Source: Elusimicrobiota bacterium
GTDB lineage: Bacteria; Elusimicrobiota; Elusimicrobia; UBA1565
DNA: 64,000 bases
Assembly (NCBI GenBank): GCA_041660925.1
Contig: JBAZVI010000002.1
Span: forward strand, 19,906-83,905
Direction: 5' to 3'
In this document: positions 46,043-63,905 of the stretch, one piece after another
Layout of the letters: each line of letters begins with the position of its first letter
Numbering within the stretch: position 1 is the first letter of the stretch
Position numbers and translations under genes: made by a program
The notes under the pieces: model-generated
Seen by the model: the letters and a program-made list of their open reading frames with translations, nothing else
Told to the model about the DNA's origin: nothing
The model's database searches: none

Positions 46043-46183
46043 CTAGCGGGAGCGCGAGCTCTTCAGGTCCAGCTCGAAGGCGATCTTCGAACGATTCTCC
46101 CAGAAATGCGCCATCTTCTGCCTTGCCGACTTGCGGGGACGCGCAGAAGAGGCCGCGGCTTTTCTTGGTCGAGAGGCGGTCAT
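46043..46183 (-). CDS. hypothetical small basic protein (46 aa)
   Basis: ATG overlaps gmd stop (ATGA); Arg/Lys-rich; could equally be non-coding. Confidence 0.2.
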
Positions 46184-47190
46184 TTCTTTATGAGCTTGTC
46201 GGGGTCGAGGCCGGCGAGTTTGAGGTCCTCGCGCACCATGAGGCGCACGAGCTCCTTGAAGCCCACCTTCGGCTTCCAGCCCAGGGCCTTGCGCGCCTTG
46301 GAGGCGTCGCCGATGAGGAGGTCCACCTCGGTCGGGCGCAGGTAGCGCGGGTCGTAGCGGACGAAGTCCTTCGGGTCGAGCTCGACGAGCCCGAAGGCCT
46401 CGTCGAGGAACTCGCGCACGGTGTGGGTCTCGCCGGTGGCGATGACGAAGTCGTCGGCCTTGGGCTGCTGGAGCATGAGCCACATCGCCTCGACGAAGTC
46501 CTTGGCGTAGCCCCAGTCGCGCTTGGAGTCGAGGTTCCCCAGGTGCAGGTGTTCCTGCTTCTTGGCCAGGATGTTGGCCAGCGCCATCGTGATCTTGCGG
46601 GTCACGAAGGTCCCGCCGCGGCGCGGGGACTCGTGGTTGAAGAGGATGCCGTTGGCGGCGTAGATGCCGTACGCCTCGCGGTAGTTCACCGTGGTCCAGT
46701 AGGCGTAGACCTTGGCGCAGGCGTAGGGGCTGCGCGGGTAGAAGGGCGTGGCCTCCGTCTGCGGCACCTGCTGCGCCTTGCCGAACATCTCGGAGCTCGA
46801 GGCCTGGTAGAAGCGCGTCGGGATGCCCGTGTCGCGGATGGCGTCGAGGAGGCGGGTCGTGCTCAGGCCCGTCACGTCGCCGGTGTACTCGGGAGTGTCG
46901 AAGCTCACGCGCACGTGGCTCTGGGCGCCCAGGTGGTAGATCTCGTCGGGCACGAGCTTGCGCAGGATGTGGTTCAGGCCCGAGGAGTCGCTCAAGTCCC
47001 CGTAGTGCAGGAAGAGCTTCACGCCCTCGGTGTGCGGGTCGCGGAAGATGTGGTCGATGCGCTCGGTGTTGAACGAGCTCGAGCGCCGGATGACCCCGTG
47101 CACCTCGTAGCCCTTCTCCAGCAGGAGCTCCGCCAGATAGGACCCGTCCTGCCCCGTGATGCCCGTGATCAGCGCCTTTTTCGTTGCCAT
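46180..47190 (-). CDS. gmd: GDP-mannose 4,6-dehydratase
   Basis: 336 aa; [20 protein letters not shown]-terminus and SDR catalytic YACAK motif typical of Gmd. Confidence 0.9.
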
Positions 47191-47225
47191 GTCGTCCGCG
47201 ATTCTAGCAGTTTTCGTCCGAGGAG

Positions 47226-47462
47226 CTACTCGAGTGGAAGCGAATCGATAGTGGCAGGCGGGGAGTCTAAACCGGCGAGGAAACGCGCTACGAATTTTGC
47301 AGCGATGAGCCCGGCGAGCAGGATGAGGATAAGTCGGAGTTGCGTGGCGTGGAAGCGCCGCACCTTCATGTACTTCTTGTAGACGACACCGTCGCGCGTG
47401 ACCTTCCCGATGAATTTGCGACGGTATAATACGCGTTCCCAGCGGGAAGAGGGCATAGGCAC
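47226..47462 (-). CDS. hypothetical small membrane protein (78 aa)
   Basis: ORF track only; one hydrophobic helix; lower-GC region. Confidence 0.35.
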
Positions 47463-47532
47463 ATTTCTCTGTTGTCTCTCTCCGTTTGGAGCGAGAGTCG
47501 GATGTGCGCGGAAGGACGGTGCATCCTACAAA

Positions 47533-48687
47533 TTACAGGAGCATCTCTTCATCCCGATGGCATGGGAGCGTCGAGGGCTTTGATTTCTGCTCATGCAATA
47601 GTGCTAGCTCATGTCCGCGTCGAAGCATCGGCCGCTCAAGCAGATAGAAACTGATTGTGGCGCAGATGAACGCCGCAAGGACGTTCAAAGGGAATGCCTG
47701 TGCGAGACCCAGCGGCCGTCCTGCGAGCTCCGACCCGCTTACGAGGAATATCTGTTGCCAGAGGTAGAGGCCGTAAGAGATTCTCCCTACCCAGCGCAGC
47801 CACGGCAATTCCAGCATGCGACCTGCCAAGGTGTGGGGATTCAGCATCGTGCATGCGACCAGCGCGGCAGCGGATATCCCAAGGAGCATCGTCATGAGCG
47901 GAGGACGAAAGATGACGATCGCAAAGAAGCCGAAGAAAAGGAGTGGGAACTTCGATGGGGAAAGGACGCGTCGGGAGCGTGCTAGCCACGTGGGATACTC
48001 GAATAGAATCGCGGTGAGGCATCCCCAAAGCAGGCCGTCGAACCTCAGATCCGTCCGTGCGGAGCGGTTGAGGCCGGGTATAAACGCATCGACGATCCCG
48101 AATTGCCCATCGAGATTCCTCCAGATCGGGAGAATGAGTACGGCAAGAACGAGAGCGGTCCTTCCATTCCGTATGCCCAGCATCGCGAGACATACAGGCC
48201 AAAGCAAGTAGAACTGTTCTTCGATGGATAGCGACCATATGTGCGCGGTGTACCATCCGTGTCCCGGCGCATATGTGAGCAGGTTGCGAATGTGGAGAAG
48301 ACAAGTCATCCATTCTCCGCGAGAGACATTCACTCCAAAGAGTATCGAGATAACCGCCAAAATGAATAGGAATAACGCGTATGCGGGGATGATTCGGAAT
48401 GCTCGACGGAGATAAAAAGGCAGAAGGGCGAAATCTCCGATTTTCCGTTTATCGCGTATCAGTCTGTTCGTGATGAGAAAACCACTGAGCGTAAAAAAAA
48501 GGTCCACCCCGCAACTGCCGTTGCGCAGGATATTATCGAAAATCCAGGAGAGGACTCTGCCGGGTGGGGTCGGCATGGCTGCGCTGGCATGGGCGACCAA
48601 GACGAGGAGTATAGCGACGCCTCTCCATCCATCCAAAGTCGGGAGATGCCCTTGTAAGAATGAACGCGCATCCTTTTCGCGTTGCAT
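47533..48687 (-). CDS. acyltransferase family 3 membrane protein (OafA/OatA-like O-acyltransferase)
   Basis: Trimmed from ORF 47533..49065 to ATG at 48685-48687 (MQREKDARSFLQGHLPTLDGWRGVAILLVLVAH...); polytopic, acyltransferase-3-like N-terminal motif. Confidence 0.7.
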   Translation of the reverse strand: MQREKDARSFLQGHLPTLDGWRGVAILLVLVAHASAAMPTPPGRVLSWIFDNILRNGSCGVDLFFTLSGFLITNRLIRDKRKIGDFALLPFYLRRAFRIIPAYALFLFILAVISILFGVNVSRGEWMTCLLHIRNLLTYAPGHGWYTAHIWSLSIEEQFYLLWPVCLAMLGIRNGRTALVLAVLILPIWRNLDGQFGIVDAFIPGLNRSARTDLRFDGLLWGCLTAILFEYPTWLARSRRVLSPSKFPLLFFGFFAIVIFRPPLMTMLLGISAAALVACTMLNPHTLAGRMLELPWLRWVGRISYGLYLWQQIFLVSGSELAGRPLGLAQAFPLNVLAAFICATISFYLLERPMLRRGHELALLHEQKSKPSTLPCHRDEEMLL

Positions 48688-48689
48688 CG

Positions 48690-49739
48690 CTAGAAGATGC
48701 GGCTTCGGAATACGAGGATCTGATAGGGGCGCATAAGATGGCGCCCGCCCATCTCGATCAGGAGTTCCGGCAGGTAGCGGCGCGGCTCGAAGAGCGGGAT
48801 CCAGTGCCGATCGAAGAGTGCCTGCGGGCATTCGATGTAGCGGCTGGTGGTATTCGCGATGACGATGTAGTCGCGCAGGCGGTAGCGCCAGGCTTTCGCC
48901 TTGAGGCCAGCGGCGAGGTTTGCAAACGGAGGCGGCTTCGGAGTTCCTTTCTCGAGGATCGGCCGCATAACGGCGAGTTCCCGGACCACCCAGGTCAGGG
49001 CGAACCATAGCGCGGGAGCGTCGGAGAGTACCGCTCCATTCGGCCGGCGGTAGGTGTAGAACCAAAGGCCCTTTGCCCCTTCGAGAATGGCGTGATAACT
49101 CATGAACCGGAGCTCAAGAATGTCAGGGAAGCGGCCGATGGCCGGTTTCCCCGACGGGGGTTTTAGATAATCGCGCCAATCCATCGCTTGCAGAACCGCC
49201 CATACCGGCTTCCCATTTGCTGCGGCGACGGTCATCCTCACCTGTTCACCTAGTGATTCGAGGGGCCGATGGGGCACTGGGTACCAATCCACCATCAGGG
49301 CGTCGCCGCTGGCCGAGTAGCGCTCGGCGGAAGCTCCCCGACCGACGACGAAGGCCGTGGGCGCTCCGTGGGACCAGCCCTTCACTTTACGCTCGAAGGC
49401 GGCGAGCTCTTCCGGAGGGGTCCTGGCGACGTCGGGTTCGTCCTGGAGATACCAGGCGGCGAGTGGGAACCCTTTCGTCGAGACGGTGGAGGTCAGAAGT
49501 TCGTGTGGATGGACGAGAATCCGCATCCGCTCCTTCCGAGCCGCCGATGCAATCGCGTGGAGGGTCGAGGGCTCCCGCGAATAACTCTGGAGCGCGTTGA
49601 AACCTTCCCTGCTCAGTAGCGCGACGGCAGCCGGGTCGTCGACCCCAAATAGGCCGAGCGGGAACCATTGCCCCGGGGCGGACGGTTTTCGAGAGCAGCC
49701 GCAGGTTATGATGAGAAGTCCGATGAAGAGTCTCTTCAC
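48690..49739 (-). CDS. hypothetical lipoprotein/secreted protein
   Basis: From ORF 48690..49826; likely GTG start at 49737-49739 overlapping capD stop (GTGA), giving a signal-like N-terminus KRLFIGLLIITCGC. Confidence 0.55.
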   Translation of the reverse strand: MKRLFIGLLIITCGCSRKPSAPGQWFPLGLFGVDDPAAVALLSREGFNALQSYSREPSTLHAIASAARKERMRILVHPHELLTSTVSTKGFPLAAWYLQDEPDVARTPPEELAAFERKVKGWSHGAPTAFVVGRGASAERYSASGDALMVDWYPVPHRPLESLGEQVRMTVAAANGKPVWAVLQAMDWRDYLKPPSGKPAIGRFPDILELRFMSYHAILEGAKGLWFYTYRRPNGAVLSDAPALWFALTWVVRELAVMRPILEKGTPKPPPFANLAAGLKAKAWRYRLRDYIVIANTTSRYIECPQALFDRHWIPLFEPRRYLPELLIEMGGRHLMRPYQILVFRSRIF

Positions 49740-51598
49740 GGCGACCGGGTGGGTGCTGCGGGCTGGTATGCAGGGACCAAGTCTTTCATCATGTTCCGGA
49801 TGGGCGCAGAGTCCGCAAGCGAGCACAAGCGCTTAAGTTCGCTGATCTGGTCGCGCAAGATCGAGAGGTCGGCCTCTTCGGGGACGGCGGCGAAGATGTC
49901 GGGGTGCCCGGTGTCCATGCGCACATCGTGTGGACGAAACAGCTCCTCGTACATCTTCTCTCCGGGACGCATCCCTGTGAAGACGATCTTGATGTCGCGA
50001 TCGGGTTCGAATCCCGAGAGAAGGATGAGGTTGCGTGCGACGTCCAACACTTTGACGGGTTCGCCCATGTTCAGCACGAAGATCTCCCCGCCTCTGCCCA
50101 GGAAGGCTGCATGAAGGATGAGCTGGACGGCCTCTTCCGTGGTCATGAAGTAGCGGGTCACATCAGGATGCGTGACCGTGACCGGACCTCCCTGGGCGAT
50201 CTGCTCCTTGAAGATGTTGATCGCGCTGCCGGAACTCCCCAAGACGTTGCCGAATCGGACCGATATGAACTTCGTCGAAGACGTCCCGGAGAACGCCCGG
50301 ATGATCATTTCCGCCATGCGCTTCGAGACGCCCATGACACTGGTGGGGCGGACGGCCTTGTCCGTCGATATGAAGAGGAAGCGCTCGACGCCGTGCCGGG
50401 CGCACTTCTCGGCGAGGAGATGGGTGCAGAGGGTGTTGTTCTTGACCGCTTCCTGGGGATTCGATTCCATGAGCGGGACGTGCTTATGCGCGGCGGCATG
50501 GAAGACCAGTTGTGGCCTGTGTGTGACGAAGAGGTTTTCCAGCAGGTCGGCGTCTCCGACGTCGCCCGCGATGGCGAGGCGCGTGACGACGGAGTTCATG
50601 GCGGAAAGCTCCCGGTCGATGTAGAACAAGTCGGTGTTGTGCTTCTCCAGAAGCAGGAGCTTCGAGGGACCGAATCGCATAATCTGCCTAGCGAGCTCCG
50701 AGCCGATGGTCCCCCCCGCGCCGGTCACCAGTACGGTCTTGCCCTGAAGGATGCCTCGGACCGAGGCGAGGTCGGTCTTCACAGACTTGCGAGGGAGGAG
50801 GTCGGCGAGCTCGATCTTGCGCATGCCGCGGGGCTGAGAGTTGTCCTTGCGCAGGGTTTCCTCGAGGGTGGGGACTGTCTTGAACTGGACTTTGAAGCCG
50901 TCTGAGTGGGGGCAGATTTCCATAAGACTCTTGATCAGCGGGCCGCGAGAGTGGTTCACGGCCACGACGATCTCATCGATCTGCTTCTGGGCGATGATCC
51001 TCGGCAGATCTTGACGGCAGCCGAGGATGGCGATTCCATGGATGCTCCGGTGGAGCTTGGCAGGATCGTCATCGATGAAGCCGATGACCCTGTGCGTCTT
51101 GTAGTCTCGGCGTTGCATGTCGCGCACGATGCTTTCCCCCAGGTCTCCGGCGCCGAAGATGAGCACTCTGGGTAGGCTCGAAGTGTCCTGCTGATAGCGC
51201 CATTCGCGCGTGAGCCGGATGGCGAACCGGATCGAGCCGACCAGGATGAGGGTAAGGAGCGGGTCGATGAAGAGCACCGATCTCGGGAATCGCGGGTGCT
51301 GGATGAGCATGAGCGAGGCGATGATGAAGATCTGGCTGGAGCTGACGGCCTTGAACAGGGCGTTCAAGTCCGACATGCTCGCATAGCGCCAGACGCCGGC
51401 GTAGGCTCCGAAGTACGCGAAGGCTCCGGTGCGGAGAAGGACGACGATCCCGATCGTCGACGCGCAGATGCTCAACTCATGCCCGGGCACCTGGAAGTCG
51501 AATCGGAGAAGGAATGCAAGAGCGTAGGAGACGAGGAAAGCCGAGATGTCCGCGAAGAGGACTAAGGGGCGGCTGAATGCAATGAGTCTCTTATACAT
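49736..51598 (-). CDS. membrane-anchored nucleotide-sugar 4,6-dehydratase (CapD/PglF/WbpM family)
   Basis: From ORF 49736..51652, probable ATG at 51596-51598 (MYKRLIAF...); N-terminal TM helices then SDR domain with LVTGAGGTIGSEL. Confidence 0.8.
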   Translation of the reverse strand: MYKRLIAFSRPLVLFADISAFLVSYALAFLLRFDFQVPGHELSICASTIGIVVLLRTGAFAYFGAYAGVWRYASMSDLNALFKAVSSSQIFIIASLMLIQHPRFPRSVLFIDPLLTLILVGSIRFAIRLTREWRYQQDTSSLPRVLIFGAGDLGESIVRDMQRRDYKTHRVIGFIDDDPAKLHRSIHGIAILGCRQDLPRIIAQKQIDEIVVAVNHSRGPLIKSLMEICPHSDGFKVQFKTVPTLEETLRKDNSQPRGMRKIELADLLPRKSVKTDLASVRGILQGKTVLVTGAGGTIGSELARQIMRFGPSKLLLLEKHNTDLFYIDRELSAMNSVVTRLAIAGDVGDADLLENLFVTHRPQLVFHAAAHKHVPLMESNPQEAVKNNTLCTHLLAEKCARHGVERFLFISTDKAVRPTSVMGVSKRMAEMIIRAFSGTSSTKFISVRFGNVLGSSGSAINIFKEQIAQGGPVTVTHPDVTRYFMTTEEAVQLILHAAFLGRGGEIFVLNMGEPVKVLDVARNLILLSGFEPDRDIKIVFTGMRPGEKMYEELFRPHDVRMDTGHPDIFAAVPEEADLSILRDQISELKRLCSLADSAPIRNMMKDLVPAYQPAAPTRSP

Positions 51599-51673: not shown

Positions 51674-53575
51674 TCACCGGGCGGTGCTGTCGACGCGGAG
51701 CAGGGTCTTCACTCCAGCCCCGGACTCCGACAGTTCCCATGCGCGCGAGAACTCCGCTAGCGGGAGGGGTTCGGAAAGCATAGATTCCGGGGAGAGTCGT
51801 GCTAGGATCTTCAGGGCCTCCTCGAAGTCTTCCCCGCTGCTTCCAACGGAGCCGATGACGGACTTGTCACTGCCGACGATGGACTCGAAATTGAAGGGGA
51901 CCTCTGCGTAGGGAAAGCCCAGGAGGAGCAGGGTGGCGCCCGCGCGGCTCTTCGATAGCGCCGAGTGCAATGCGCCGACATCTCCTGTCGCCTCGATGAG
52001 GATGTCGAAATCCGCAAGGGCTGCGAGGTCTGTCGATACGGCGATTCCCGCCTCCTTGAGGACGCTTAGGCGTCCTTCGTTGCGGTCGAAGGTCGTCACG
52101 GATTCGCCGCGCAGTGACAGGACTTTCGCGGCGAGATGCCCGATGGGGCCGGCGCCGATGACTGCATGGCGAAGTACTCCACGAGCGCCGTGTGTCGAAG
52201 CATCGAGGCGACGCAGGGCCTTCAAGACAACCGCCGTGGGCTCGCATAGACAGGCCGCTCGAAGCGAAACCTCTGGAGGGATGCGATGGACGAATCGCCC
52301 CGGCACGACGACGTATTCGGAATACCCGCCGTCGCGTCCCATCACACCCACTTCAGCCCTTTGAGAACAGCCAATGGCGTTCCCGCGCTGGCAGGGTCCG
52401 CAATCGCCGCAGCCCTGGATGCACTCAGCGACGACGAGGTCTCCTTCCGCGACGTTCTCGACGCGCGGCCCCGCTGCGACCACGGTGCCGGAGAACTCAT
52501 GCCCAGGGACGATGGGATAACGGGCAAGGCCGGTCCTATAGTATCCGAGGGAGCCGTGGTAGATGTCGAGGTCAGTTCCGCAGACGCCCTCGAAGGCGAC
52601 GCGGATGAGCACGTCTCCGGGGCGGATCTCTGGCAGTTCGATGTCGACGTACGCCGCGTCACGCGGCCCGCGGACGACGACGGCCCGCGAACGACGGTCG
52701 AAGAAAAGGCGCTCGCGCTTGAGGGGGTTGTCCATCGCGGCGCCGTCGAGGACTCCTGCGCAGGTCCCGCGGAGCTTCTCCCAGCGAAAACGAAGGATCT
52801 CCGGGGTCTTGGTGAGGAGTTTCCCTTCTCTCGCTGCCCTGCGAAGGTCGCCCGCAGTACGGCGGGCTTCCTGGACCAACGCGACCGGCAGATCCCGGCG
52901 GTTCAAGACGCCTATCCACTTGGCGGCCTGCCCTTCGCGATAGAATCTGCGACGTACCTGGCTCCAGTTCTCGTCATGGATATGACGAATGTCGGCCTTG
53001 GCGGCGTAGACGACGACGAAGCCTTGCTCCATCCAGTGCTTCGCCCATTCGATGTCCTCGAGCCCCGGCAGGGTCTCGTCGAAGGGGTGTTTCTCCCAGA
53101 GGTCCCGGCGGATCGCCGAGTTCGCGTTGTTGGCGAAGAAGTCCGGAGGTGTCAGGATTCGGTCTGCGACGCCGAACGTGCGCTGGAAGTCGAGCTGCTC
53201 GGAAAACTTCGAGCGATCGTCGCCGGATTGCCGCCCGTAGACCATCGCGGTGCGCCCGTCGCGGAGGGGCTTTATCAGTTCTTCAAGCCAATGCATGCCC
53301 GCGGGAACGGTGTGTGCGGAGACGATGGCGAGGAAGCGCCCCTCGGACGCTTGGATCCCCACGTTGAGGGAGTGCCCGAAGGTGAAGTCGTGACGGGTCA
53401 GGCGAACGAGGCGATGCGTCCGTTCCGAGGCGATTTGCCGGGTGTGGTCGAAGGAGCCGGAATCCACGACGATGATCTCAAAGTCTCTGTAGCTTTGCGC
53501 GGCAAGGCCGTCGAGCAGGACCGGCAGATGCCGCTCTTCGTTGAATGCGCGGATGATGATCGATGTCTCAGGCAT
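51674..53575 (-). CDS. fusion protein: N-terminal family-2 glycosyltransferase domain + C-terminal zinc-dependent alcohol dehydrogenase (MDR) domain
   Basis: 633-aa continuous ORF; GT2-like start (IIIRAFNEE, IIVVDSGS) then MDR-like region (RVAFEGVCGTDL, GHEFSGTV, Rossmann GAGPIGHLA). Confidence 0.7.
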   Translation of the reverse strand: MPETSIIIRAFNEERHLPVLLDGLAAQSYRDFEIIVVDSGSFDHTRQIASERTHRLVRLTRHDFTFGHSLNVGIQASEGRFLAIVSAHTVPAGMHWLEELIKPLRDGRTAMVYGRQSGDDRSKFSEQLDFQRTFGVADRILTPPDFFANNANSAIRRDLWEKHPFDETLPGLEDIEWAKHWMEQGFVVVYAAKADIRHIHDENWSQVRRRFYREGQAAKWIGVLNRRDLPVALVQEARRTAGDLRRAAREGKLLTKTPEILRFRWEKLRGTCAGVLDGAAMDNPLKRERLFFDRRSRAVVVRGPRDAAYVDIELPEIRPGDVLIRVAFEGVCGTDLDIYHGSLGYYRTGLARYPIVPGHEFSGTVVAAGPRVENVAEGDLVVAECIQGCGDCGPCQRGNAIGCSQRAEVGVMGRDGGYSEYVVVPGRFVHRIPPEVSLRAACLCEPTAVVLKALRRLDASTHGARGVLRHAVIGAGPIGHLAAKVLSLRGESVTTFDRNEGRLSVLKEAGIAVSTDLAALADFDILIEATGDVGALHSALSKSRAGATLLLLGFPYAEVPFNFESIVGSDKSVIGSVGSSGEDFEEALKILARLSPESMLSEPLPLAEFSRAWELSESGAGVKTLLRVDSTAR

Positions 53576-57432: not shown

Positions 57433-58659
57433 TCACGCGCCGGGTGCGTGGGAGTTCGACGGCATCGAGAGGATACTCGGATGTCCCGATTCAAGACATC
57501 GTCCTGCCAAGGTCTCGCAATACAATGCACCCATCTTCTCGACATATCGGGCCATGCTGAACTTCTCGCTCCAGGTCCGGTACCCGGCTTCCCGCAAGGC
57601 GGCGAGAGAGGCTGACGGCGCGGCGAAGATTCGAAGAAGGCGATCCGCCAGGACAGAGGGATCGTTCGGCGGGATGAGGAACCCGTTGGTCTCGTCCTGG
57701 ATTATTTCCGGGACTCCCCCTACGGCAGTGGCTACGACAAGTTTCTTCAGACACAGCGCCTCGAGGATGCTGTTCGGGATGCCTTCGCTTTCCGATGGGA
57801 GTGCGACGACGTCCGCGGTCTTGAGCGCGGCGGCGACATCCTCGATGTGACCCTTGAAGTGTATCCAATCGCGGACTCCCTCAGCGACGGCCATGCGGCA
57901 GAGAGCGTCGAAGTAGAGGCCTCCCCCGCCGTCCGTGGCGGATTCGTGGGAACCATAAACGACGACCGACAGCGGGGGTCCGCGTCGTCGGATCAATGCC
58001 AGCGCGCGCAGGAGAGTCTCGAAGCCCTTCCGTACGGTGATGCGGCTGACGACCGCTAATATCGGAGGGAGAGGTTCTCCGTCGGCGCGGACGATGTCTG
58101 GCTCCGCCAGAGGAGGACGCCCGTCGTAGATGCACGCGATCTTCGTCGGGGAAATCCTGGAACGCTGGATGAGCTCATCTCGGAGGTATTCGCCGTTCAC
58201 CGCGTAGGCGTCCACATGCGTCTGGGTGAGACGGTCGAGCTGGTGGTATGCCCACAACACGGACGCTGGCCGGTCGGACCAGTCGAGGCTTGTGTGCATG
58301 CGGAAGATATGACGCACCCCCGGGGAACTCCGCCTGACCAAGCGGCAGACGATGCTCTCGCGAAAGGCGTTCGATTGGAGGAGACGGATGCCTTCGCGGC
58401 GGGTGAGTTCGAGGATGCGTGCCGCCGCTGGCCACGGGCGCCGGAACATCAGTTCGGGTATCACATGCACGCCGAGGCCCGTCTCGGTGAACTTCCGGGC
58501 TAGAGGCCCATCCCTTCCCGTCAGGAGGAGTGGGCGACAGTGCAGACGGTCGCGCAGATGGATGGCCCAGCGGTGGACCTGCCCTTCGATTCCTCCCAGC
58601 GAGGAGGCCCGGCGCACCAGCCCAATGGGGCATCCCTCGGGCAGTTCAGATAGAGTCAT
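57433..58659 (-). CDS. glycosyltransferase family 4 (GT-B fold)
   Basis: Trimmed from ORF 57433..59169 to ATG at 58657-58659 (MTLSELPEG...); C-terminal motif LPSESEGIPNSILEAL typical of GT4. Confidence 0.8.
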   Translation of the reverse strand: MTLSELPEGCPIGLVRRASSLGGIEGQVHRWAIHLRDRLHCRPLLLTGRDGPLARKFTETGLGVHVIPELMFRRPWPAAARILELTRREGIRLLQSNAFRESIVCRLVRRSSPGVRHIFRMHTSLDWSDRPASVLWAYHQLDRLTQTHVDAYAVNGEYLRDELIQRSRISPTKIACIYDGRPPLAEPDIVRADGEPLPPILAVVSRITVRKGFETLLRALALIRRRGPPLSVVVYGSHESATDGGGGLYFDALCRMAVAEGVRDWIHFKGHIEDVAAALKTADVVALPSESEGIPNSILEALCLKKLVVATAVGGVPEIIQDETNGFLIPPNDPSVLADRLLRIFAAPSASLAALREAGYRTWSEKFSMARYVEKMGALYCETLAGRCLESGHPSILSMPSNSHAPGA

Positions 58660-59384
58660 GACGATGGCGGACGGATGAATGCAAGATAATGGGTGCACAG
58701 GAACGGCACGCGACTCAAGAGCGCACAGACGGCCGGCGAGTACGGGGCAAGGGCTCGCGTGATGGGCGGGGCCAGGGTGATCGGAATCAGTTCTATAGTG
58801 GAATCGGGGAAGAGGCTGAAGATCTCGGCGCGAGAAATCCCGTGGACATCGCGGTTGAAAGGGTTGTCGATGCGGAAGTCGTACCATACGATCGTCCCAT
58901 TTGGAGCAAGGACGCGGACCATCTCCCGAGCAATTTCGGCCTTTAATGCGGAGTCCGCGATCGAGGTGAACATCGTGCTTTGGAGTACGATGTCGAATGC
59001 TGCGTCGGGGAGTCCAGTCCGGGCGGCGTTCCTGCAGAGGATGCGGACGCTCCCGCCGGTGCGGTAGAGGGCCTCGCGGGCGCGCGCTTCGATGAGTTCG
59101 ATGCCGATGAGATTCTCCGGCCGCACGCCCCATCGAATGAACTCGAGCAGCCAGGTTCCTTCGCCGCACCCGAGCTCGAGAACGTGCATCCCGGGGAATT
59201 CGGGCAGGCCGATGCGCTGCAACGCATGCAGGACGGCTTCGTTTCGTTCACGGGTCATGAGGATGTGCGCCGGATTGTCGTCGGAATAGCGGGCGTGTAC
59301 ATCGGCTTTCTCTCGGCGCTTATACGACGCGCGTATCCGCGCTTCTTCGTCCTCGAAGTCGCGGGAAGGCTCTCGGATCATCAT
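58656..59384 (-). CDS. class I SAM-dependent methyltransferase
   Basis: 242 aa; SAM-binding motif VLELGCGEG; stop overlaps GT4 start (ATGA). Confidence 0.75.
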   Translation of the reverse strand: MMIREPSRDFEDEEARIRASYKRREKADVHARYSDDNPAHILMTRERNEAVLHALQRIGLPEFPGMHVLELGCGEGTWLLEFIRWGVRPENLIGIELIEARAREALYRTGGSVRILCRNAARTGLPDAAFDIVLQSTMFTSIADSALKAEIAREMVRVLAPNGTIVWYDFRIDNPFNRDVHGISRAEIFSLFPDSTIELIPITLAPPITRALAPYSPAVCALLSRVPFLCTHYLAFIRPPSS

Positions 59385-60745
59385 GTCTTCGCTGGCGGGA
59401 ACTCTCCCGTCTTCAAAAGGGTACGGTAACGCTTCTGGGATTCCCCCCCCAGCCCGAAGAAGAAGAATTGCGCGAGTTCCGACAGGGCCGCCGCCTCCTT
59501 CTGCGGAGCCGCGCGCGCTTTGTTCCAGAGTCCCAGGAGCCCCCTTGCATCCTCGAATTCGTCCGGATGGTCCGCCATGCTGTAATAGCCCGCATCCTTG
59601 TATCGGAAGACGGGTACGGCGCGGACGAGCATCTCATTGTAAACGGTCGATGTCCGTGCGACGCAGAAATCGATTCGAGAGGCGAAGTCGTCCATCGCCA
59701 GATCGAGCGACCCCATCCCGACGCAACGATGCAGCACCTCAGCCTCCGGATAATCTGCGCGCACGTTCAAGGGGTGCATCTTGACGACATATCGGAGATC
59801 GAGAACCTCCGCGACCTTCTCCGCGATGGAGAGCATCCGGCGGTTGCTGCCTTTGTAGATCTCCTGCTCGAAAGCGATGCCGAAGACCCCGGAGGGCGGT
59901 CGTGCGGCTCGCGCGGCCTTCACCGCCGCATGGTCGAAATCCAGGTAGCGGGGATGTCCCATGATGAACAACCGCTCGGCGGGGATGCGCTTGCACAGCT
60001 CACGGCGAGTGAACTCTCCCCAGATCAGAAACGCATCCGAGACGAAAGACTCGTAATTAATCATGTTGATGTGTGGGTCGCTCTCATCGTAGACGATGAT
60101 CTGACCATGCTGTAGCGCGGCGGTGCGGCATCCCTGGGCTTTCGCCACTTGCATCAGGACATTCGGCCATGGGAGGGCGTCGCTGAAGGCGAGGGCAAGG
60201 CGGTAGCGCTTGAAAGATATCGCGCGGGGAAGAGTGGCGGCGAACTTCACATGCTGTCCAAGGAGGCATGACAGGTAGAGGCGTTGGTCGAGACGAAGTT
60301 CGGCCGGAAGCGTGAGGGCGGTCGGGAGCAGCTGTGTGAGGAGATAGTGCAGTCCCGCTGGGCTTGCGGATGCCTCCCAGCCCCGAAGGTCGAGGACGTC
60401 GGCATCGTCGGAGAGGGCCTGTATCTTGCGGAAGGTCTCCTCGAGATCGGAGCGAAGGAATTCCCCGTGAACGAGGATGACGCGGGGGCTCTTCGACGGC
60501 GTCCGTCTCAGCCAACGGAGCTTGGGAGAAAACGCCAGGAGACGGAGCAGGCCCGAGCAGAGGAAGAGAATCGTCCTGAGTGCTCCCCATTCCGCATGTA
60601 TCGTCGTCCAGATGTGATATGAGAGGGCAGCGCCATACGCGACGCCGGCGTCGACCTGTCGATCCAGTATGGTGCGGACCTTGCGGTAGAGGAGATATTC
60701 TCGACGGGAATCCCTGCAGGGTGCCGCGTGCTCGTAGCGTCTCAT
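59381..60745 (-). CDS. hypothetical glycan-biosynthesis protein
   Basis: Trimmed from ORF 59381..61168 to ATG at 60743-60745 (MRRYEHAAP...); resembles capsule polysaccharide biosynthesis proteins only loosely. Confidence 0.55.
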   Translation of the reverse strand: MRRYEHAAPCRDSRREYLLYRKVRTILDRQVDAGVAYGAALSYHIWTTIHAEWGALRTILFLCSGLLRLLAFSPKLRWLRRTPSKSPRVILVHGEFLRSDLEETFRKIQALSDDADVLDLRGWEASASPAGLHYLLTQLLPTALTLPAELRLDQRLYLSCLLGQHVKFAATLPRAISFKRYRLALAFSDALPWPNVLMQVAKAQGCRTAALQHGQIIVYDESDPHINMINYESFVSDAFLIWGEFTRRELCKRIPAERLFIMGHPRYLDFDHAAVKAARAARPPSGVFGIAFEQEIYKGSNRRMLSIAEKVAEVLDLRYVVKMHPLNVRADYPEAEVLHRCVGMGSLDLAMDDFASRIDFCVARTSTVYNEMLVRAVPVFRYKDAGYYSMADHPDEFEDARGLLGLWNKARAAPQKEAAALSELAQFFFFGLGGESQKRYRTLLKTGEFPPAKT

Positions 60746-61830
60746 CGGGCGGATGCCCGCGCGTATGGTTTCTCTGGGGGGACGGAGGGCAGCGCCTTGG
60801 CGAGGACGACGAAAACCTGGTCCCCTCTCCCCTCCTCGTTGAGCTGGCGCGCATTCGACCGGAATCTTCGCAGTTCCTCCTTCGTGAAGATGCTGTTGCG
60901 CGGAGACTTTATGTGGGATCGATCGGACATCAGGGGTATGTCTCGGCGATATTGCTCGCTGCCTATGAATTGGAACTGCGTCGAGTCCCATCCCCACCTC
61001 TCGATGCGGAGCCCTGCGTGGGACGCCAACAGCTCGAGAGCCTTCCGCGTGAAGATGAAGCAGTGGCGCGGTGCGTCGAGCTGCACCCAGGACGGGCCAT
61101 AGATCTCCCAACAGTAGTTGGGGAGGATGGGTGTTCGAATTAGGATCTTCCCTTCGTCGGCAAGACACCTCGAGAGCGCAATCAGGGTCGTCTCTGGCTC
61201 CGGCACATGCTCGAGGGAATGGTTCATCAGGATGAGATCGAACCGCTCTGCGGATTCCGGGAGAGCGCTCCTGCGGAGCACGAGTCTGCCGTCATCGCTG
61301 GAGGCCCCAGTCGGCGGCAGGAATGGGTCGATGCCGCGCAGATGCGAGAACCCATCTCGGTAGAGGGACTGGAGTAGTCCACCTCCCCCGCATCCGACGT
61401 CGAGGATGCGGGAGCTGCGGCCTGCACCGGCCCACTCGAGCCACCGATAATGCTCGGGGTAGCCTTGCCAGGCGATGATCAACGCCCCCAGCATCCGCTT
61501 GGGTAGGGATCCGTCACCAAGACAGAAGCATGAACGGCATCGGCGGGCGAATGTCTCGAAGAAGCCCGGAGGATGCAGTGGGCCCATCGGAGTGGAGTCG
61601 AAGGAGTAGTATTCCGCGGGGTATGCGATTCCTGGACGGAGTTGAATCTCCGCGCGCTGCATCGTCCCGCAGCCTCCGCAGAGGGCATACGTGTAAGGTT
61701 CTCTTCCTCCGAAGAACATTTCATGGATTGAGAACGATTCGTTCCCGGTGGCATTCCCGCAAATCCGGCATGGAAAGGCATCCTGCGCGACGTCTGCTCC
61801 CGGAGTAGCGTTCGTTCCGGAAGGCTTCAT
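60742..61830 (-). CDS. class I SAM-dependent methyltransferase with N-terminal Cys4 zinc-ribbon
   Basis: From ORF 60742..61902, ATG at 61828-61830; CRICGN...CGGCG zinc-ribbon-like pair then LDVGCGGGGLL SAM-binding motif. Confidence 0.7.
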   Translation of the reverse strand: MKPSGTNATPGADVAQDAFPCRICGNATGNESFSIHEMFFGGREPYTYALCGGCGTMQRAEIQLRPGIAYPAEYYSFDSTPMGPLHPPGFFETFARRCRSCFCLGDGSLPKRMLGALIIAWQGYPEHYRWLEWAGAGRSSRILDVGCGGGGLLQSLYRDGFSHLRGIDPFLPPTGASSDDGRLVLRRSALPESAERFDLILMNHSLEHVPEPETTLIALSRCLADEGKILIRTPILPNYCWEIYGPSWVQLDAPRHCFIFTRKALELLASHAGLRIERWGWDSTQFQFIGSEQYRRDIPLMSDRSHIKSPRNSIFTKEELRRFRSNARQLNEEGRGDQVFVVLAKALPSVPPEKPYARASAR

Positions 61831-62792
61831 AGGTTGTCGAGTGCATCCCAATCCGGGTCGTGATGGTATCCCGGATCGAGCGGTGAGATGAAGGCGGCGC
61901 ATCTGCGGAACAACCGGCTCAGTCGTTCGCTTCTGGGGAGGCCGGCGGGTGGGAGACTGCCCGATGCGCGCAGGATCCGTCTCATATGCTCGGTTTTAGT
62001 CGCCGGGAGCCGCTGCTCACTCTCGGCCTGACGGGTCAACAGGAAGGCGAAATCCCAGTAGCGGTATGCGAGGTAGCACGCGAAGGCGCGTAGGATCTTT
62101 AATGGGTTCGACGCGAACCGCTTCAGCACGACTTCCGGCGGGAGGAAATAGAGGGCGTCGACCTCCGTCAGTTGCCCGGCGCTGCGGAGATTCGCCGGGA
62201 GGTCCGCGCGGGTCCAGTAATGCCGACGAAGATCGATGAGTTGAAGTCCGTGTGAGGTCAGGCGCTCGTGGATCTCTCCGAACGAGCATCCGCCTCCATA
62301 GATGGGCGCCAACCGAGCTTCGCTCTCGACGCCGATGATGTTGGTGAGGGTGCGTGAGGCGCCCTCCAGGACAGCGGACTCATGTCCTTGGACGTCTAAC
62401 TTCATGAAATCCAGGTCTTCACGTCCAATGAGATTCAGCTGTCTGTCGAGGTTGTCTCCAGTGAGATCGATGGTGTTGACGATTTCATAACGCTCCGGGG
62501 CATGGAAGAGGCGGAGGAAGGGGGAATGCGGCTCGTGAAGCGAGGAGACTTGCTGCTTGCGGCATTGGAAGAGTCGAACATTTCCTGAAGCGCGGGTCAG
62601 CGCCACCCTCAGGATATGCGAATCGTCTCCATCCGCGTGCGGAAGCGATGCGCGGGAGTCCGGTTCAACGAGAATCGCATGCAGACAGCTGGTGAGGTCC
62701 CCCCATCGCGGGTGCAGACCTCCAGATGCGCCGATGTCGGCGATGTTGAGTACGGTCCCGCGGAGGAGGTCGTTCATTTCCATGGAGCACAT
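61827..62792 (-). CDS. FkbM-family methyltransferase
   Basis: 321 aa; NIADIGASGG motif near N-terminus typical of FkbM-type methyltransferases. Confidence 0.7.
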   Translation of the reverse strand: MCSMEMNDLLRGTVLNIADIGASGGLHPRWGDLTSCLHAILVEPDSRASLPHADGDDSHILRVALTRASGNVRLFQCRKQQVSSLHEPHSPFLRLFHAPERYEIVNTIDLTGDNLDRQLNLIGREDLDFMKLDVQGHESAVLEGASRTLTNIIGVESEARLAPIYGGGCSFGEIHERLTSHGLQLIDLRRHYWTRADLPANLRSAGQLTEVDALYFLPPEVVLKRFASNPLKILRAFACYLAYRYWDFAFLLTRQAESEQRLPATKTEHMRRILRASGSLPPAGLPRSERLSRLFRRCAAFISPLDPGYHHDPDWDALDNL

Positions 62793-62840
62793 TCAGTAAT
62801 GTCCCGAAATCATTTTGAAGGGAAGTCTTGTCGCCGGATG

Positions 62841-63905
62841 CTAAATGAAATGACGCGTATGGACGGAGTTGACGTCGCAGAAAACTCTGTTGAACGAGGT
62901 TATCCGGCATACGCTGCAGCCGGATTGGTTCTCCGCATGGAGAAGCTTGCGGGTCGCGCTCCTCCGAATGTCTGAGTGCCAGATGTCTTCGAATGAGGAC
63001 GTCCGGAGGTTGCCGAGTGTGATCGGGTCATGACGACGCTTTTCACACAGGACGACGTCCCCGTCGGCATGAATGATGCATGCGAGTGAATGTGCGACGC
63101 AGGGCAGATGATCGTTACTTGCGATCAGACGCTCATTGATCGTCAGGAGCGGCCGGATTCGCGAGATGTCTGAAAATGCGATGAGTGCCTTCTTGAGGTC
63201 GAGGAGGTTCGCGGTCGACGGGAGGAGTTCTGGGGTCTCCTCAATGGGTCGGAAGTAGATGTAATCGACGCCGATGCGGTCGAGCACGACGAGGAGCTCC
63301 GAGATCGCCGCGATGTTCCTGTTGGTCAGGACGTACCCGACGCCGACGTGGGTCTTCTGAGGGTCCCGGGCGGAGGCGAGCCGGCCGAGATTCGTGAGGA
63401 CCTGGTCGAACATGTCGGCGCCCTTTTCGACTAGGAACTCCTTTCTGCTGCCGGCATCGAGCGAGAAGCGGATCCAGTCGAACTGGCCGGCGAATTGAGA
63501 GACGTCCTTGACACCGTTGGTCAACATCCCGAGATGGAGACCTTGGGTCGCCGCATGCGCGAGAAGCTCCAGGAAATCAGGGTGCAGTGTGGGCTCTCCG
63601 CCGCCTTCAATCGTGACCCCGACGTTGTTCTTGGCGCAATATGTGAACAGCCTGAGCAAGTCCTCCTTGCGTTGAGAGGTCTGGTTGTCTCGGATCCGTC
63701 GGTCTGTGCACCAGGAGCAGTTGAGGTTGCAAACGTTGGTGAGATGCAGCTCGATGCTGATGGGAGGGAGCGAATCGTAGTCTGCGGTGCGGTTGTAGAC
63801 ATCCAGGATGGTCTGAACCTTTTTGGGGTTTAAGAGAAGCTTGAGTTTGTTGTATTCAAAATCGCTCCAGAAGTTCATGCCACCACCTTGTCGCTTGAAG
63901 GGCAT
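62841..63905 (-). CDS. radical SAM protein with C-terminal Cys-rich (SPASM-like) region
   Basis: 354 aa; CxxxCxxC motif CNLNCSWC, glycine-rich TIEGGGEPTL, C-terminal cysteines (CVAHSLAC, CSVC); start may be the internal Met (MNFWSDF...). Confidence 0.75.
   Translation of the reverse strand: MPFKRQGGGMNFWSDFEYNKLKLLLNPKKVQTILDVYNRTADYDSLPPISIELHLTNVCNLNCSWCTDRRIRDNQTSQRKEDLLRLFTYCAKNNVGVTIEGGGEPTLHPDFLELLAHAATQGLHLGMLTNGVKDVSQFAGQFDWIRFSLDAGSRKEFLVEKGADMFDQVLTNLGRLASARDPQKTHVGVGYVLTNRNIAAISELLVVLDRIGVDYIYFRPIEETPELLPSTANLLDLKKALIAFSDISRIRPLLTINERLIASNDHLPCVAHSLACIIHADGDVVLCEKRRHDPITLGNLRTSSFEDIWHSDIRRSATRKLLHAENQSGCSVCRITSFNRVFCDVNSVHTRHFI

What the first reader, a model, noticed from the sequence alone, without database searches (positions are those of the whole stretch)
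46043..63905. About 18-kb single-strand glycan biosynthesis locus with visibly lower GC than the housekeeping region
Sixteen consecutive minus-strand genes encode nucleotide-sugar and glycan modification enzymes. The base composition is noticeably less GC-rich, especially 46-50 kb, pointing to horizontal acquisition of a strain-variable surface-polysaccharide island. The combination of cytidylyltransferase, aminotransferase and 4,6-dehydratase suggests an activated amino- or acid-sugar such as a nonulosonic or Kdo-like sugar.
Basis: partly seen in the sequence, partly recalled or inferred. Interest (0 to 1): 0.5.

Follow-up and report, generated by a model that had tools for sequence, protein, structure and literature searches.

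The report
Low-GC capsule/exopolysaccharide gene island
The flagged stretch is the first half of a roughly 34-kb, compositionally foreign block of genes inside an ordinary exopolysaccharide/capsule locus of an uncultured Elusimicrobiota bacterium, and it carries a widespread but uncharacterised gene cassette that probably makes a Kdo-type acidic sugar.

Summary
From 47.2 kb to the window end, 14 real minus-strand glycan genes plus one doubtful 76-aa ORF have GC about 0.61 and GC3 0.74. Housekeeping genes upstream have GC 0.71 and GC3 0.95, with no overlap (p about 1e-8).

Corrections:
- gmd (46180-47190) has native codon usage and is an ancestral neighbour in relatives, so it is a flank, not cargo.
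- "18 kb" is a window-edge artefact. On the source contig the same-strand atypical block runs to about 81.4 kb (about 34 kb, about 30 genes) and ends at native-looking Wza-type and beta-barrel export genes.

It is therefore the variable centre of a Wzy-dependent, Wza/Wzc-exported polysaccharide locus, a known kind.

The nonulosonic-acid idea is not supported, because no NeuB-type synthase occurs anywhere in 46-83 kb. The "Kdo-like" idea is partly supported. The cytidylyltransferase is KdsB/KpsU-type and sits in a conserved, undescribed cassette (mutarotase-fold, KdsB-like, 2-hydroxyacid dehydrogenase, GT2::Zn-ADH fusion). An unannotated GT-B protein with an invariant HP motif is the likely transferase.

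Strain-level variability could not be tested. No mobility genes or tRNA lie at the left edge of the block; the far junction was not examined for them.

The parts
46180..47190 (-). gmd, GDP-mannose 4,6-dehydratase. A native-composition flank gene, not part of the atypical block.
   Evidence: TIGR01472 527 bits against a 415-bit cutoff. GC3 0.973 and CAI 0.79, like housekeeping genes. A gmd homologue of about 61% identity lies 5-7 kb past the same anchor gene, on the same strand, in 7 related metagenome contigs.
47226..47456 (-). 76-aa ORF with one hydrophobic helix. Doubtful gene. First atypical-composition ORF after gmd.
   Evidence: Called as a gene on the Logan contig. GC3 0.71, CAI 0.29. 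No family tested.
47533..48684 (-). Acyltransferase-3 family membrane O-acyltransferase. GC minimum of the window.
   Evidence: PF01757 100 bits, covering residues 17-349 of the 383-aa ORF. GC 0.55, GC3 0.63, CAI 0.17.
48690..49739 (-). 349-aa protein of unknown family with a hydrophobic N-terminal signal-like segment.
   Evidence: No Pfam, NCBIfam or PDB sequence hit. A 51%-identical homologue lies at the edge of related contig L089, beside carbamoyltransferase and GNAT genes.
49736..51598 (-). PglF/WbpM/CapD-type membrane-anchored UDP-HexNAc 4,6-dehydratase.
   Evidence: PF02719 356 bits. Closest solved structure is C. jejuni PglF, 5BJU, E = 2.3e-84. Four N-terminal hydrophobic segments.
51674..53575 (-). 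GT2 glycosyltransferase (residues 1-~230) fused to a Zn-dependent medium-chain alcohol dehydrogenase (residues ~295-633). Core of the conserved cassette.
   Evidence: PF00535 plus PF08240/PF00107/PF16912. CGTD, GHE and CxxCxxCx7C zinc motifs intact. 1361 relatives at E<1e-20, the top ones full-length at 54-64% identity. The two halves are separate adjacent genes in L127.
53568..54527 (-). D-isomer-specific 2-hydroxyacid dehydrogenase (short PGDH / glyoxylate-reductase type). Cassette member.
   Evidence: PF02826 187 bits. Best PDB hit 1WWK, E = 1.5e-59. 62-65% identical orthologues sit immediately upstream of the fusion (or of the GT2 gene in L127) in L083, L085, L086 and L127.
54524..55330 (-). 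KdsB/KpsU-type cytidylyltransferase (CMP-Kdo-synthetase family). Cassette member.
   Evidence: NF009905 299 bits (cutoff 255) and TIGR00466 158.5 bits (cutoff 155.2). Best PDB hit is E. coli KpsU, 1GQ9, E = 4e-49. PARxxSxR motif present. 54-58% identical orthologues in 5 of 5 other loci.
55303..56247 (-). Galactose-mutarotase-fold protein (DUF5107/DUF4432-like). Cassette member.
   Evidence: AF2 pLDDT 94.3, pTM 0.92. Foldseek E = 4e-15 and TM 0.67-0.74 to mutarotase-like proteins. Invariant H99, H163, E278. Orthologues beside the cytidylyltransferase in L085, L086 and L127.
56270..57298 (-). Divergent DegT/DnrJ/EryC1-family PLP aminotransferase.
   Evidence: PF01041 70.7 bits. Best PDB E-value only 6e-9. 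PLP lysine motif SFYATK present. Not conserved with the cassette elsewhere.
57433..58659 (-). GT4 (GT-B) glycosyltransferase.
   Evidence: PF00534 108 bits, PF13439.
58656..59384 (-). Class I SAM methyltransferase.
   Evidence: PF13649 and PF08241.
59381..60745 (-). Unannotated GT-B-fold protein with invariant QHG and HP motifs. Candidate transferase for a cytidine-nucleotide-activated (CMP-ulosonate) donor.
60742..61662 (-). Class I SAM methyltransferase.
   Evidence: PF13489 83 bits.
61827..62792 (-). FkbM-family methyltransferase.
   Evidence: PF05050 38 bits. TIGR01444 31.7 bits, below its 37.7-bit cutoff.
62841..63878 (-). Radical SAM / SPASM-domain enzyme.
   Evidence: PF04055 and PF13186. 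CxxxCxxC motif at residue 50.
63955..64000 (-). 3' end of a B12-binding radical SAM gene cut by the window edge. The locus continues beyond the window.
   Evidence: Gene spans 63955-65394 in window-equivalent coordinates, on contigs identical to the window over all overlap.

Best explanation
The interval is the gmd-proximal half of the compositionally foreign centre of a Wzy-dependent, Wza/Wzc-exported exopolysaccharide or capsule locus in an uncultured, high-GC (about 72%) Elusimicrobiota bacterium.

Layout: native-composition genes bracket the block, with gmd at one end and the Wza-type exporter and BBP2_2 beta-barrel at the other. The roughly 34 kb between them (window-equivalent 47.2-81.4 kb, about 30 genes, one strand) has GC3 of about 0.74 against 0.95 for the genome. 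It was most likely acquired or replaced by horizontal exchange from a lower-GC donor, as happens in O-antigen and K loci.

Inferred mechanism:
(1) A PglF-like 4,6-dehydratase, an ArnB/Per-like 4-aminotransferase and a small PglC-type phosphoglycosyltransferase build an undecaprenyl-PP-linked 4-amino-4,6-dideoxy-HexNAc-type primer.
(2) GT2, GT4 and other GT-B transferases extend the repeat unit. Gmd may supply a GDP-6-deoxyhexose.
(3) A conserved cassette (mutarotase-fold protein, KdsB/KpsU-type cytidylyltransferase, 2-hydroxyacid dehydrogenase, GT2::Zn-ADH) supplies a CMP-activated Kdo-type 2-ulosonic acid, possibly redox-modified. The HP-motif GT-B protein g13 adds it.
(4) Methyltransferases, two radical SAM enzymes and an O-acyltransferase decorate the glycan.
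(5) Two Wzy_C proteins polymerise or ligate it, and Wzc, Wza and the beta-barrel export it.

Shown here: the gene families, the composition and the synteny. Inferred: substrates, order of steps and product.
For: Composition.

Locus extent and identity to the window: (0 mismatches over all overlaps; by arithmetic from the L123 overlap, window 1-64000 corresponds to record 19906-83905 of JGI contig Ga0376277_0000092).

Assembly and export genes: Poly_export, Wzz/GNVR plus a tyrosine-autokinase domain (TIGR01007 139.9 bits, cutoff 108), two Wzy_C, BBP2_2, Bac_transf.

gmd as ancestral flank. GC3 returns to 0.86 and then 0.96 at Poly_export and BBP2_2.

Relatives share the glyS-nadE-PilZ-anchor flank, but within the 10 kb of sequence examined past the anchor they lack the island genes and show no GC drop.

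Primer pathway.

Cassette conservation at 50-65% identity in five otherwise different loci, including a split GT2/ADH version preceded by a KpsF-type SIS+CBS gene. Co-occurrence on at least 15 further contigs, from shared contig lengths.

KdsB membership. g13 fold, motifs and context. HP-motif precedent: PMC10148158, PMC12887879.
Against: No integrase, IS element, tRNA or direct repeats were found in the window part of the block. The far junction was assessed only by composition and gene calls. Transfer is therefore inferred from composition and distant synteny only.

Relatives used for synteny are distant (41-54% identity for the anchor protein), so gene-content differences are expected anyway.

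No Wzx-type flippase was recognised. The 423-aa multi-TM protein is only a candidate.

No KdsA, KdsC or KdsD lies in this locus, so Kdo would have to come from the LPS pathway, which was not seen.

The roles of the 2-hydroxyacid dehydrogenase, the GT2 domain and the Zn-ADH are unexplained by a plain Kdo supply function.

The fold search places g13 nearest to UDP-dependent GT-B enzymes and the CDP-ribitol polymerase TarL, not to Kdo transferases.
Confidence: 0.75

Rival explanations
1. The low GC is not due to transfer. The locus is ancient and vertically inherited, and keeps low GC3 because of weak expression, weak selection on codon usage or local mutational bias, as is sometimes argued for polysaccharide loci.
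For: No mobility genes, tRNA or repeats in the window part. All island genes share similar GC3 of 0.63-0.82, as expected for a long-resident block as well.
Against: GC3 steps from 0.97 to about 0.7 within 40 bp of the gmd start, and climbs back through 0.77 and 0.86 to 0.96 at the export genes. Other unnamed or presumably weakly expressed genes upstream keep GC3 above 0.92. Relatives with the same flank show no GC drop and lack these genes within the 10 kb examined. Cassette genes are 50-65% identical to genes in unrelated phyla.
Confidence: 0.12
2. The cytidylyltransferase, aminotransferase and dehydratase make a nonulosonic acid (pseudaminic, legionaminic or sialic-type), which is one of the two sugars the first reader proposed.
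For: A CTP_transf_3 enzyme, a DegT aminotransferase and a UDP-HexNAc 4,6-dehydratase are all present. g13 relatives occur in a nonulosonic-acid-type locus.
Against: No NeuB-family synthase and no NeuC/PseG/LegG-type enzyme occurs anywhere in 46-83 kb. PseF scores 42 bits against a 205.7-bit cutoff, PseB 158 against 408 and PseC 51 against 424, whereas the KdsB models are passed. The dehydratase is the membrane-anchored PglF type.
Confidence: 0.05
3. The cassette does not handle Kdo. It makes another cytidine-activated unit, either a 2-keto-aldonic acid formed by aldose 1-dehydrogenase (Zn-ADH) plus 2-hydroxyacid dehydrogenase, or a CDP-alditol in TarI/TarJ/TarL style. g13 would then be a TagF/TarL-like phosphotransferase.
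Against: The cytidylyltransferase passes the KdsB equivalog and subfamily cutoffs and is not IspD/TarI- or TagD-type. A KpsF/KdsD-type SIS+CBS gene directly precedes the cassette in L127. The closest g13 relative lies near KdsA-like and KdsB-KdsC-like genes.
Confidence: 0.2

Closest known systems
Wzy-dependent group 1 capsule, colanic acid and Klebsiella K loci (wza-wzb-wzc plus a serotype-specific centre); PEP-CTERM/Eps-type EPS loci
   Same: Single-strand operon-like block. Wza-type exporter, Wzc-type tyrosine autokinase and Wzy_C proteins. Conserved native flanks bracket a lower-GC variable centre of sugar-synthesis, transferase and decoration genes.
   Different: No Wzb phosphatase or recognisable Wzx was seen. 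A BBP2_2 beta-barrel is present, as in Eps-type systems. The host is an uncultured Elusimicrobiota bacterium. Serotype-level variability is not demonstrated.
Campylobacter jejuni Pgl pathway, early steps (PglF, PglE, PglC)
   Same: A membrane-anchored PglF-like dehydratase (5BJU, E = 2e-84), a sugar 4-aminotransferase and a roughly 200-aa single-domain phosphoglycosyltransferase.
   Different: No PglD-type acetyltransferase. The aminotransferase is closer to ArnB and perosamine synthase than to PglE. No oligosaccharyltransferase. The genes are 20 kb apart within the locus.
E. coli group 2 capsule Kdo-supply genes kpsF/kpsU, and the LPS gene kdsB
   Same: A second, locus-embedded KdsB-family cytidylyltransferase whose closest solved relative is KpsU. 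A KpsF-type SIS+CBS gene accompanies the cassette in another Elusimicrobia genome.
   Different: No KpsC/KpsS, no ABC transporter and no KdsA in the locus. It is always accompanied by a GT2 plus a Zn-ADH, and usually a 2-hydroxyacid dehydrogenase, none of which has a counterpart in kps loci.
Shewanella Kdo8N pathway (KdnB oxidase plus KdnA aminotransferase acting on free Kdo before KdsB); own knowledge, plus PDB 5K8B
   Same: The logic of a dehydrogenase and a DegT-type aminotransferase next to a KdsB-type activating enzyme.
   Different: KdnB is an iron-type (group III) ADH, whereas here the dehydrogenase is Zn-type and fused to a GT2. The DegT gene is not conserved with the cassette. Similarity to KdnA is marginal (E = 5.5e-4).
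Beta-Kdo glycosyltransferases GT99 (WbbB), GT107 (KpsC/KpsS) and GT140 (KrkA), and CMP-sialic-acid GT-B enzymes (PMC10148158, PMC12887879); TagF/TarL CDP-polyol transferases
   Same: g13 is a GT-B-fold protein that sequence searches do not recognise, has an invariant His-Pro motif in the C-terminal Rossmann domain, and has a cytidylyltransferase gene in the same locus in every case sampled.
Arn/Gtr-type periplasmic glycan modification (ArnC/GtrB, ArnE-F/GtrA, ArnT/GtrC)
   Same: Outside the window (66.1-68.9 kb), a 255-aa GT2 with weak ArnC/PgfS/PpgS matches, a 128-aa four-helix ArnE/ArnF-like protein and a 555-aa multi-TM DUF6798 protein are adjacent.
   Different: All matches are far below the curated cutoffs. 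DUF6798 is not a recognised GT-C family. The function is inferred from the arrangement only.

Membership tests
Wzy-dependent, Wza/Wzc-exported polysaccharide locus | Initiating polyprenyl-phosphate phosphoglycosyltransferase | tested here: met
   205-aa Bac_transf protein at window-equivalent 70291-70908. It matches the catalytic domain of TIGR03025 at 229 bits. It lies outside the window.
Wzy-dependent, Wza/Wzc-exported polysaccharide locus | Wzy-type polymerase | tested here: met
   Two PF04932 Wzy_C proteins at window-equivalent 75488-76825 and 77954-79666. Polymerase cannot be told from ligase by sequence.
Wzy-dependent, Wza/Wzc-exported polysaccharide locus | Wzx/MOP-family flippase | tested here: not met
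   No Polysacc_synt or MurJ hit in 46-83 kb. A 423-aa multi-TM protein without family hits (69000-70271) is a candidate only.
Wzy-dependent, Wza/Wzc-exported polysaccharide locus | Wza-type outer-membrane exporter and Wzc-type co-polymerase/tyrosine autokinase | tested here: met
   Poly_export/SLBB protein (TIGR03027 123 bits, below its equivalog cutoff). A Wzz+GNVR protein whose kinase domain passes TIGR01007 (139.9 bits against 108).
Horizontally acquired genomic island | Composition and codon usage atypical for the host genome, with sharp boundaries | tested here: met
   GC3 0.739 against 0.952 with no overlap. CAI 0.32 against 0.77. Boundaries at gmd (47.2 kb) and Wzc/Wza (about 81.4 kb).
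Horizontally acquired genomic island | Mobility signatures (integrase, IS, tRNA target, flanking direct repeats) | tested here: not met
   None in 42.5-64 kb. The ARAGORN tRNA-Asp call is not supported by Rfam. The far junction was not searched for repeats or tRNAs; its gene calls show no mobility-gene Pfam family.
Horizontally acquired genomic island | Absent or different at the syntenic site in relatives | tested here: inconclusive
   Relatives share the glyS-nadE-PilZ-anchor(-gmd) flank and lack the island genes within 10 kb, but they are only 41-54% identical in the anchor protein. No strain- or species-level relatives were available.
Nonulosonic acid (Pse/Leg/Neu) biosynthesis | NeuB/PseI/LegI-type PEP-condensing synthase | tested here: not met
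   No PF03102 hit in any gene from 46 to 83 kb.
Nonulosonic acid (Pse/Leg/Neu) biosynthesis | NeuA/PseF/LegF-type cytidylyltransferase | tested here: not met
   TIGR03584 PseF scores 42 bits against a 205.7-bit cutoff. NeuA structures match only at E >= 7e-8, against 4e-49 for KpsU.
Kdo activation and incorporation | KdsB/KpsU CMP-Kdo synthetase | tested here: met
   NF009905 299.4 bits (cutoff 255), NF003952 274.6 (193), TIGR00466 158.5 (155.2). 1GQ9 E = 4e-49. Substrate specificity itself is not testable here.
Kdo activation and incorporation | KdsD/KpsF, KdsA and KdsC in or near the locus | tested here: not met
   None in 46-83 kb. A KpsF-type SIS+CBS gene precedes the cassette in L127, and KdsA-like plus KdsB-KdsC genes lie near a g13 relative in L120.
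Kdo activation and incorporation | A Kdo transferase (GT30, GT73, GT99, GT107 or GT140) | tested here: inconclusive
   No sequence match to known families. g13 has a GT-B fold, an invariant HP motif and cytidylyltransferase co-occurrence, but structurally it is closest to UDP-dependent GT-B enzymes and TarL.
PglF/PglE/PglC-type diNAcBac/AAT primer pathway | UDP-HexNAc 4,6-dehydratase, 4-aminotransferase and small PGT, with or without a PglD N-acetyltransferase | tested here: inconclusive
   Dehydratase and small PGT are met. The aminotransferase is present but closest to ArnB/Per. No PglD/hexapeptide acetyltransferase was found.

The most novel reading that the evidence does not exclude
The cassette embedded in the island, together with the HP-motif GT-B protein g13, encodes an undescribed and widely distributed pathway. 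The cassette comprises a mutarotase-fold protein, a KpsU-like cytidylyltransferase, a 2-hydroxyacid dehydrogenase and a GT2 plus Zn-ADH (fused here, split in another Elusimicrobia genome where a KpsF-type isomerase precedes it). The pathway would make and install a redox-modified Kdo-type (or other 2-ulosonic acid) residue. The g13 family (771 representatives) would then be a new family of cytidine-nucleotide-dependent glycosyltransferases.
Probability: 0.3. Interest if true: 0.6.

Novelty: new member of a known kind. Interest (0 to 1): 0.33.

Why it matters
As a low-GC polysaccharide island this is textbook biology, found here in a little-studied phylum, so it has limited impact.

Two things go beyond routine annotation.
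(1) It shows how a window edge and a native flank gene can mislead. The real unit is a roughly 34-kb cassette between conserved gmd and export genes, the same architecture that drives serotype switching in enterobacteria.
(2) The island exposes a conserved but unstudied gene module. It has more than 1,300 fusion homologues across bacteria, and one member family (the mutarotase-fold protein) also occurs in an archaeal MAG. With it comes an unannotated GT-B family tied to cytidylyltransferases. Characterising them could add a new acidic-sugar pathway and a new glycosyltransferase family to the known repertoire.

Tried and rejected
(1) tRNA as integration site. ARAGORN called a tRNA-Asp at 44208-44290, but it is 83 nt, lies inside a GC-rich ORF and is not found by Rfam at gathering score. 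Rejected.

(2) Flanking direct or inverted repeats and IS elements. Only chance-level short matches, plus the tandem repeats inside the coiled-coil gene.

(3) Genome-collection scan anchored on Gmd, to find the species and close relatives. Best hit 74%, taxonomically scattered, no shared island genes. The source species is not among the GTDB representatives.

(4) Metagenome scan anchored on the native 329-aa flank gene. Only the same population (100% fragments) and distant relatives (54% or less). Useful for flank synteny, not for strain variation.

(5) Literature searches for the cassette (cytidylyltransferase, 2-hydroxyacid dehydrogenase, GT2, Zn-ADH) and for Kdo8N genes. Nothing relevant found.

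(6) Sequence searches of g04, g09 and g13 against the PDB. No hits.

(7) Fold search to pin down the g13 donor. It gave only a generic GT-B fold.

(8) Nonulosonic-acid reading. Rejected for lack of a synthase.

Rejected as non-coding (GC3 0.46).

Full report
OBSERVATION

The window is high-GC. One-kb windows average 0.713 +/- 0.034 over 1-45 kb and fall to 0.609 +/- 0.023 over 47-64 kb (Mann-Whitney p = 3.6e-9).

A frame-aware gene call shows 18 housekeeping genes upstream with GC3 0.952 +/- 0.013. These include GlyS, NadE, YidC and an MFS transporter. Every gene from 47.2 kb onward has GC3 of 0.63-0.82. The two sets do not overlap at all (U = 414 = 18 x 23, p = 5.8e-8). CAI measured against the native set is 0.32 for island genes and 0.77 for native genes.

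Between 46180 and 63905 there are 15 consecutive minus-strand genes, or 16 if a 76-aa membrane ORF at 47226-47456 is counted. Thirteen of them have glycan-related family hits.

Three corrections are needed:
- gmd (46180-47190) has native composition (GC3 0.973, CAI 0.79), so "especially 46-50 kb" holds only for 47-49 kb.
- The 18-kb length is an artefact of the window edge.

TRUE EXTENT

Exact-match look-ups found a Logan contig and the source JGI contig (Ga0376277_0000092, 556,426 bp). NCBI annotates the source as a MAG of an Elusimicrobiota bacterium. Both contigs are identical to the window over all overlapping sequence. By arithmetic from the L123 overlap, the window corresponds to record positions 19906-83905.

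Past the window the same strand carries, in order:
- a B12-radical SAM enzyme and a methyltransferase;
- a multi-TM DUF6798 protein, an ArnC-like GT2 and an ArnE/F-like small membrane protein;
- a 423-aa multi-TM unknown;
- a 205-aa PglC-type phosphoglycosyltransferase and an ArnB/Per-like DegT aminotransferase;
- two GT2s and a methyltransferase;
- a Wzy_C protein, a GT-B transferase and a second Wzy_C protein;
- a Wzc-type co-polymerase/tyrosine autokinase, a Wza-type Poly_export protein and a BBP2_2 beta-barrel.

GC3 stays at 0.67-0.77 through the Wzc-type gene, rises to 0.86 in Poly_export and is 0.96 in BBP2_2. The atypical block is therefore about 47.2-81.4 kb in window-equivalent coordinates (about 34 kb, about 30 genes). 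Native-looking gmd bounds it on one side and native-looking export genes on the other.

SYNTENY

The species is not among the GTDB representative genomes. The best Gmd hit is 74% identical and the hits are taxonomically scattered.

A metagenome scan anchored on the native 329-aa gene at 41966-42955 found only fragments of the same population (100% identity) and distant relatives (41-54%). These relatives keep the glyS-nadE-PilZ-anchor order. Seven of them have a gmd homologue (about 61% identity) 5-7 kb past the anchor, on the same strand as here. None carries the island genes within the 10 kb examined, apart from two isolated single-gene hits (a g04 homologue at the edge of L089 and a DegT in L104). 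They show no GC drop there. What they do carry near gmd differs from contig to contig: RmlD-like, WecB and SLT genes in one; carbamoyltransferase, GNAT, an IS200-like gene and a homologue of the 349-aa unknown in another.

This makes gmd an ancestral neighbour and the site a glycan-gene hotspot. The relatives are too distant to test strain variability. No tRNA, integrase, IS element or flanking repeat is present in the window part.

WHAT THE GENES DO

The locus has the parts list of a Wzy-dependent, Wza/Wzc-exported polysaccharide. A recognisable Wzx flippase is missing.

The PglF-like dehydratase (5BJU, E = 2e-84), the ArnB/Per-like aminotransferase and the small PGT account for a 4-amino-4,6-dideoxy-HexNAc-type primer.

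The third, the cytidylyltransferase, passes the curated KdsB cutoffs (NF009905 299 against 255; TIGR00466 158.5 against 155.2). It is closest to the capsule CMP-Kdo synthetase KpsU (1GQ9, E = 4e-49). It fails the PseF model (42 bits against a 206-bit cutoff). No NeuB-type synthase exists anywhere in 46-83 kb. A nonulosonic acid is therefore not supported, while a Kdo-type sugar is plausible.

A CONSERVED CASSETTE

The GT2::Zn-ADH fusion (51674-53575) has 1361 relatives at E<1e-20, and the top hits are full-length at 54-64% identity.

In four distant loci the fusion is preceded by the KdsB-like gene, either directly or with only the 2-hydroxyacid dehydrogenase between them (4/4). The dehydrogenase is present in 3/4 and the DUF4432/5107-like gene in 2/4. 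Identities are 52-65%, and almost nothing else is shared.

In a second Elusimicrobia MAG (L127) the cassette appears with GT2 and ADH as separate adjacent genes. There it is directly preceded by a SIS+CBS protein, which is the KdsD/KpsF architecture.

The DUF5107-like protein models confidently (pLDDT 94) as a galactose-mutarotase fold (Foldseek E = 4e-15). Its family has invariant His, His and Glu residues. I did not map these onto a mutarotase active site, so their catalytic role is my inference. A mutarotase fold implies a free-sugar substrate, as expected for a KdsB-type activation step.

The catalytic motifs of the Zn-ADH, the KdsB-like enzyme, both DegT proteins and both radical SAM enzymes are intact. 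I found no description of this cassette in the searchable literature.

THE UNANNOTATED 454-aa PROTEIN (g13, 59381-60745)

It has no Pfam, NCBIfam or PDB sequence hit. An exhaustive search found 771 family representatives. The alignment shows invariant H213 (in a TxTxQHG motif), G263 and H324-P325.

Three of three relatives sampled lie in loci with a CTP_transf_3 gene:
- one near KdsA-like and KdsB-KdsC-like genes;
- one in a nonulosonic-acid-type locus;
- one directly beside a cytidylyltransferase, followed by an HMGL-like aldolase, a HAD phosphatase and an aminotransferase.

A profile of the family weakly detects (11-26 bits) unknown ORFs next to the cassette in L083, L084 and L086. The alignments cover the motif positions: the QHG histidine in L083 and the H-P pair in L084 and L086.

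Beta-Kdo transferases share an HP motif with CMP-sialic-acid transferases and were not recognisable as GTs by sequence (PMC10148158). A new such family, GT140, was defined in 2026 (PMC12887879). I therefore infer that g13 is the transferase for the cytidine-activated product of the cassette. The fold search does not discriminate the donor, so a TagF/TarL-like phosphotransferase role remains a rival.

VERDICT

The finding is a real but ordinary object: the horizontally exchanged, low-GC centre of a capsule/EPS locus, truncated by the window. Of its sugar guesses, the nonulosonic-acid half is wrong and the Kdo-like half is plausible.

The most interesting residue is the conserved, uncharacterised cassette and the HP-motif GT-B family. 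Their chemistry is inferred, not shown.

Noticed in passing
window 45237-45995 (-): A 252-aa coiled-coil-like protein containing a 33-bp x 6.3 tandem repeat (45657-45865, 93% match; 11-aa unit ATKRDLQALST) and a 21-bp x 3.6 repeat (45506-45580). It has low GC (0.59, GC3 0.76, CAI 0.36) and sits between the native 437-aa gene and native gmd, so it is a separate small atypical insert of unknown function. No family hit reaches its cutoff.
   Followed up: partly
window 36764-37465 (-): A 233-aa gene with a ribbon-helix-helix (RHH_3) domain and GC3 of only 0.68, wedged between glyS and nadE. It coincides with the 37-38 kb GC dip (0.62). A second small compositionally foreign insert.
   Followed up: no
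window 44208-44290 (+): ARAGORN calls an 83-nt tRNA-Asp inside the GC-rich ORF 43845-45158. Rfam finds no tRNA at gathering score in 36-64 kb. Probably a false positive, so there is no tRNA at the island edge.
   Followed up: yes
window 47056 (inside gmd): The independent Logan assembly (SRR18595301_31649, 41.9 kb, identical to the window over all sequence fetched) ends inside gmd, within about 150 bp of the native/atypical composition junction. This could be a coverage or variant break at the island edge.
   Followed up: no
L127:9021-14474 (Elusimicrobia MAG GCA_016218575.1): The same cassette, with GT2 (284 aa) and Zn-ADH (341 aa) as separate adjacent genes and a SIS+CBS (KdsD/KpsF-type) gene directly upstream. 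This shows the window's 633-aa protein is a gene fusion of two coupled functions.
   Followed up: yes
window-equivalent 66121-68935 (L123:14084-16898): Adjacent genes for a 555-aa multi-TM DUF6798 protein, a 255-aa ArnC/PgfS-like GT2 and a 128-aa ArnE/ArnF-like four-helix protein. The arrangement resembles Arn/Gtr-type periplasmic glycan modification through a polyprenyl-phosphate sugar. All matches are far below curated cutoffs.
   Followed up: partly
L084:6344-8182, L085:11917-13857, L086:13935-15851: Large (612-646 aa) soluble proteins without Pfam hits lie next to the cassette in other loci. They are related to each other: L084's matches L085's and L086's by phmmer. Those in L084 and L086 weakly match the g13 family profile across the HP motif.
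   Followed up: partly
window 48690-49739 (-): A 349-aa protein with a signal-like N-terminus and no detectable family or solved relative. A 51%-identical homologue lies in related contig L089 beside carbamoyltransferase and GNAT genes. Possibly a periplasmic polysaccharide-processing enzyme.
   Followed up: partly
window 8820-17168 (-): A run of six tightly packed minus-strand genes with very high GC3 (0.95-0.98) that looks like a housekeeping operon. It was used only as a native codon-usage reference and was not annotated.
   Followed up: no
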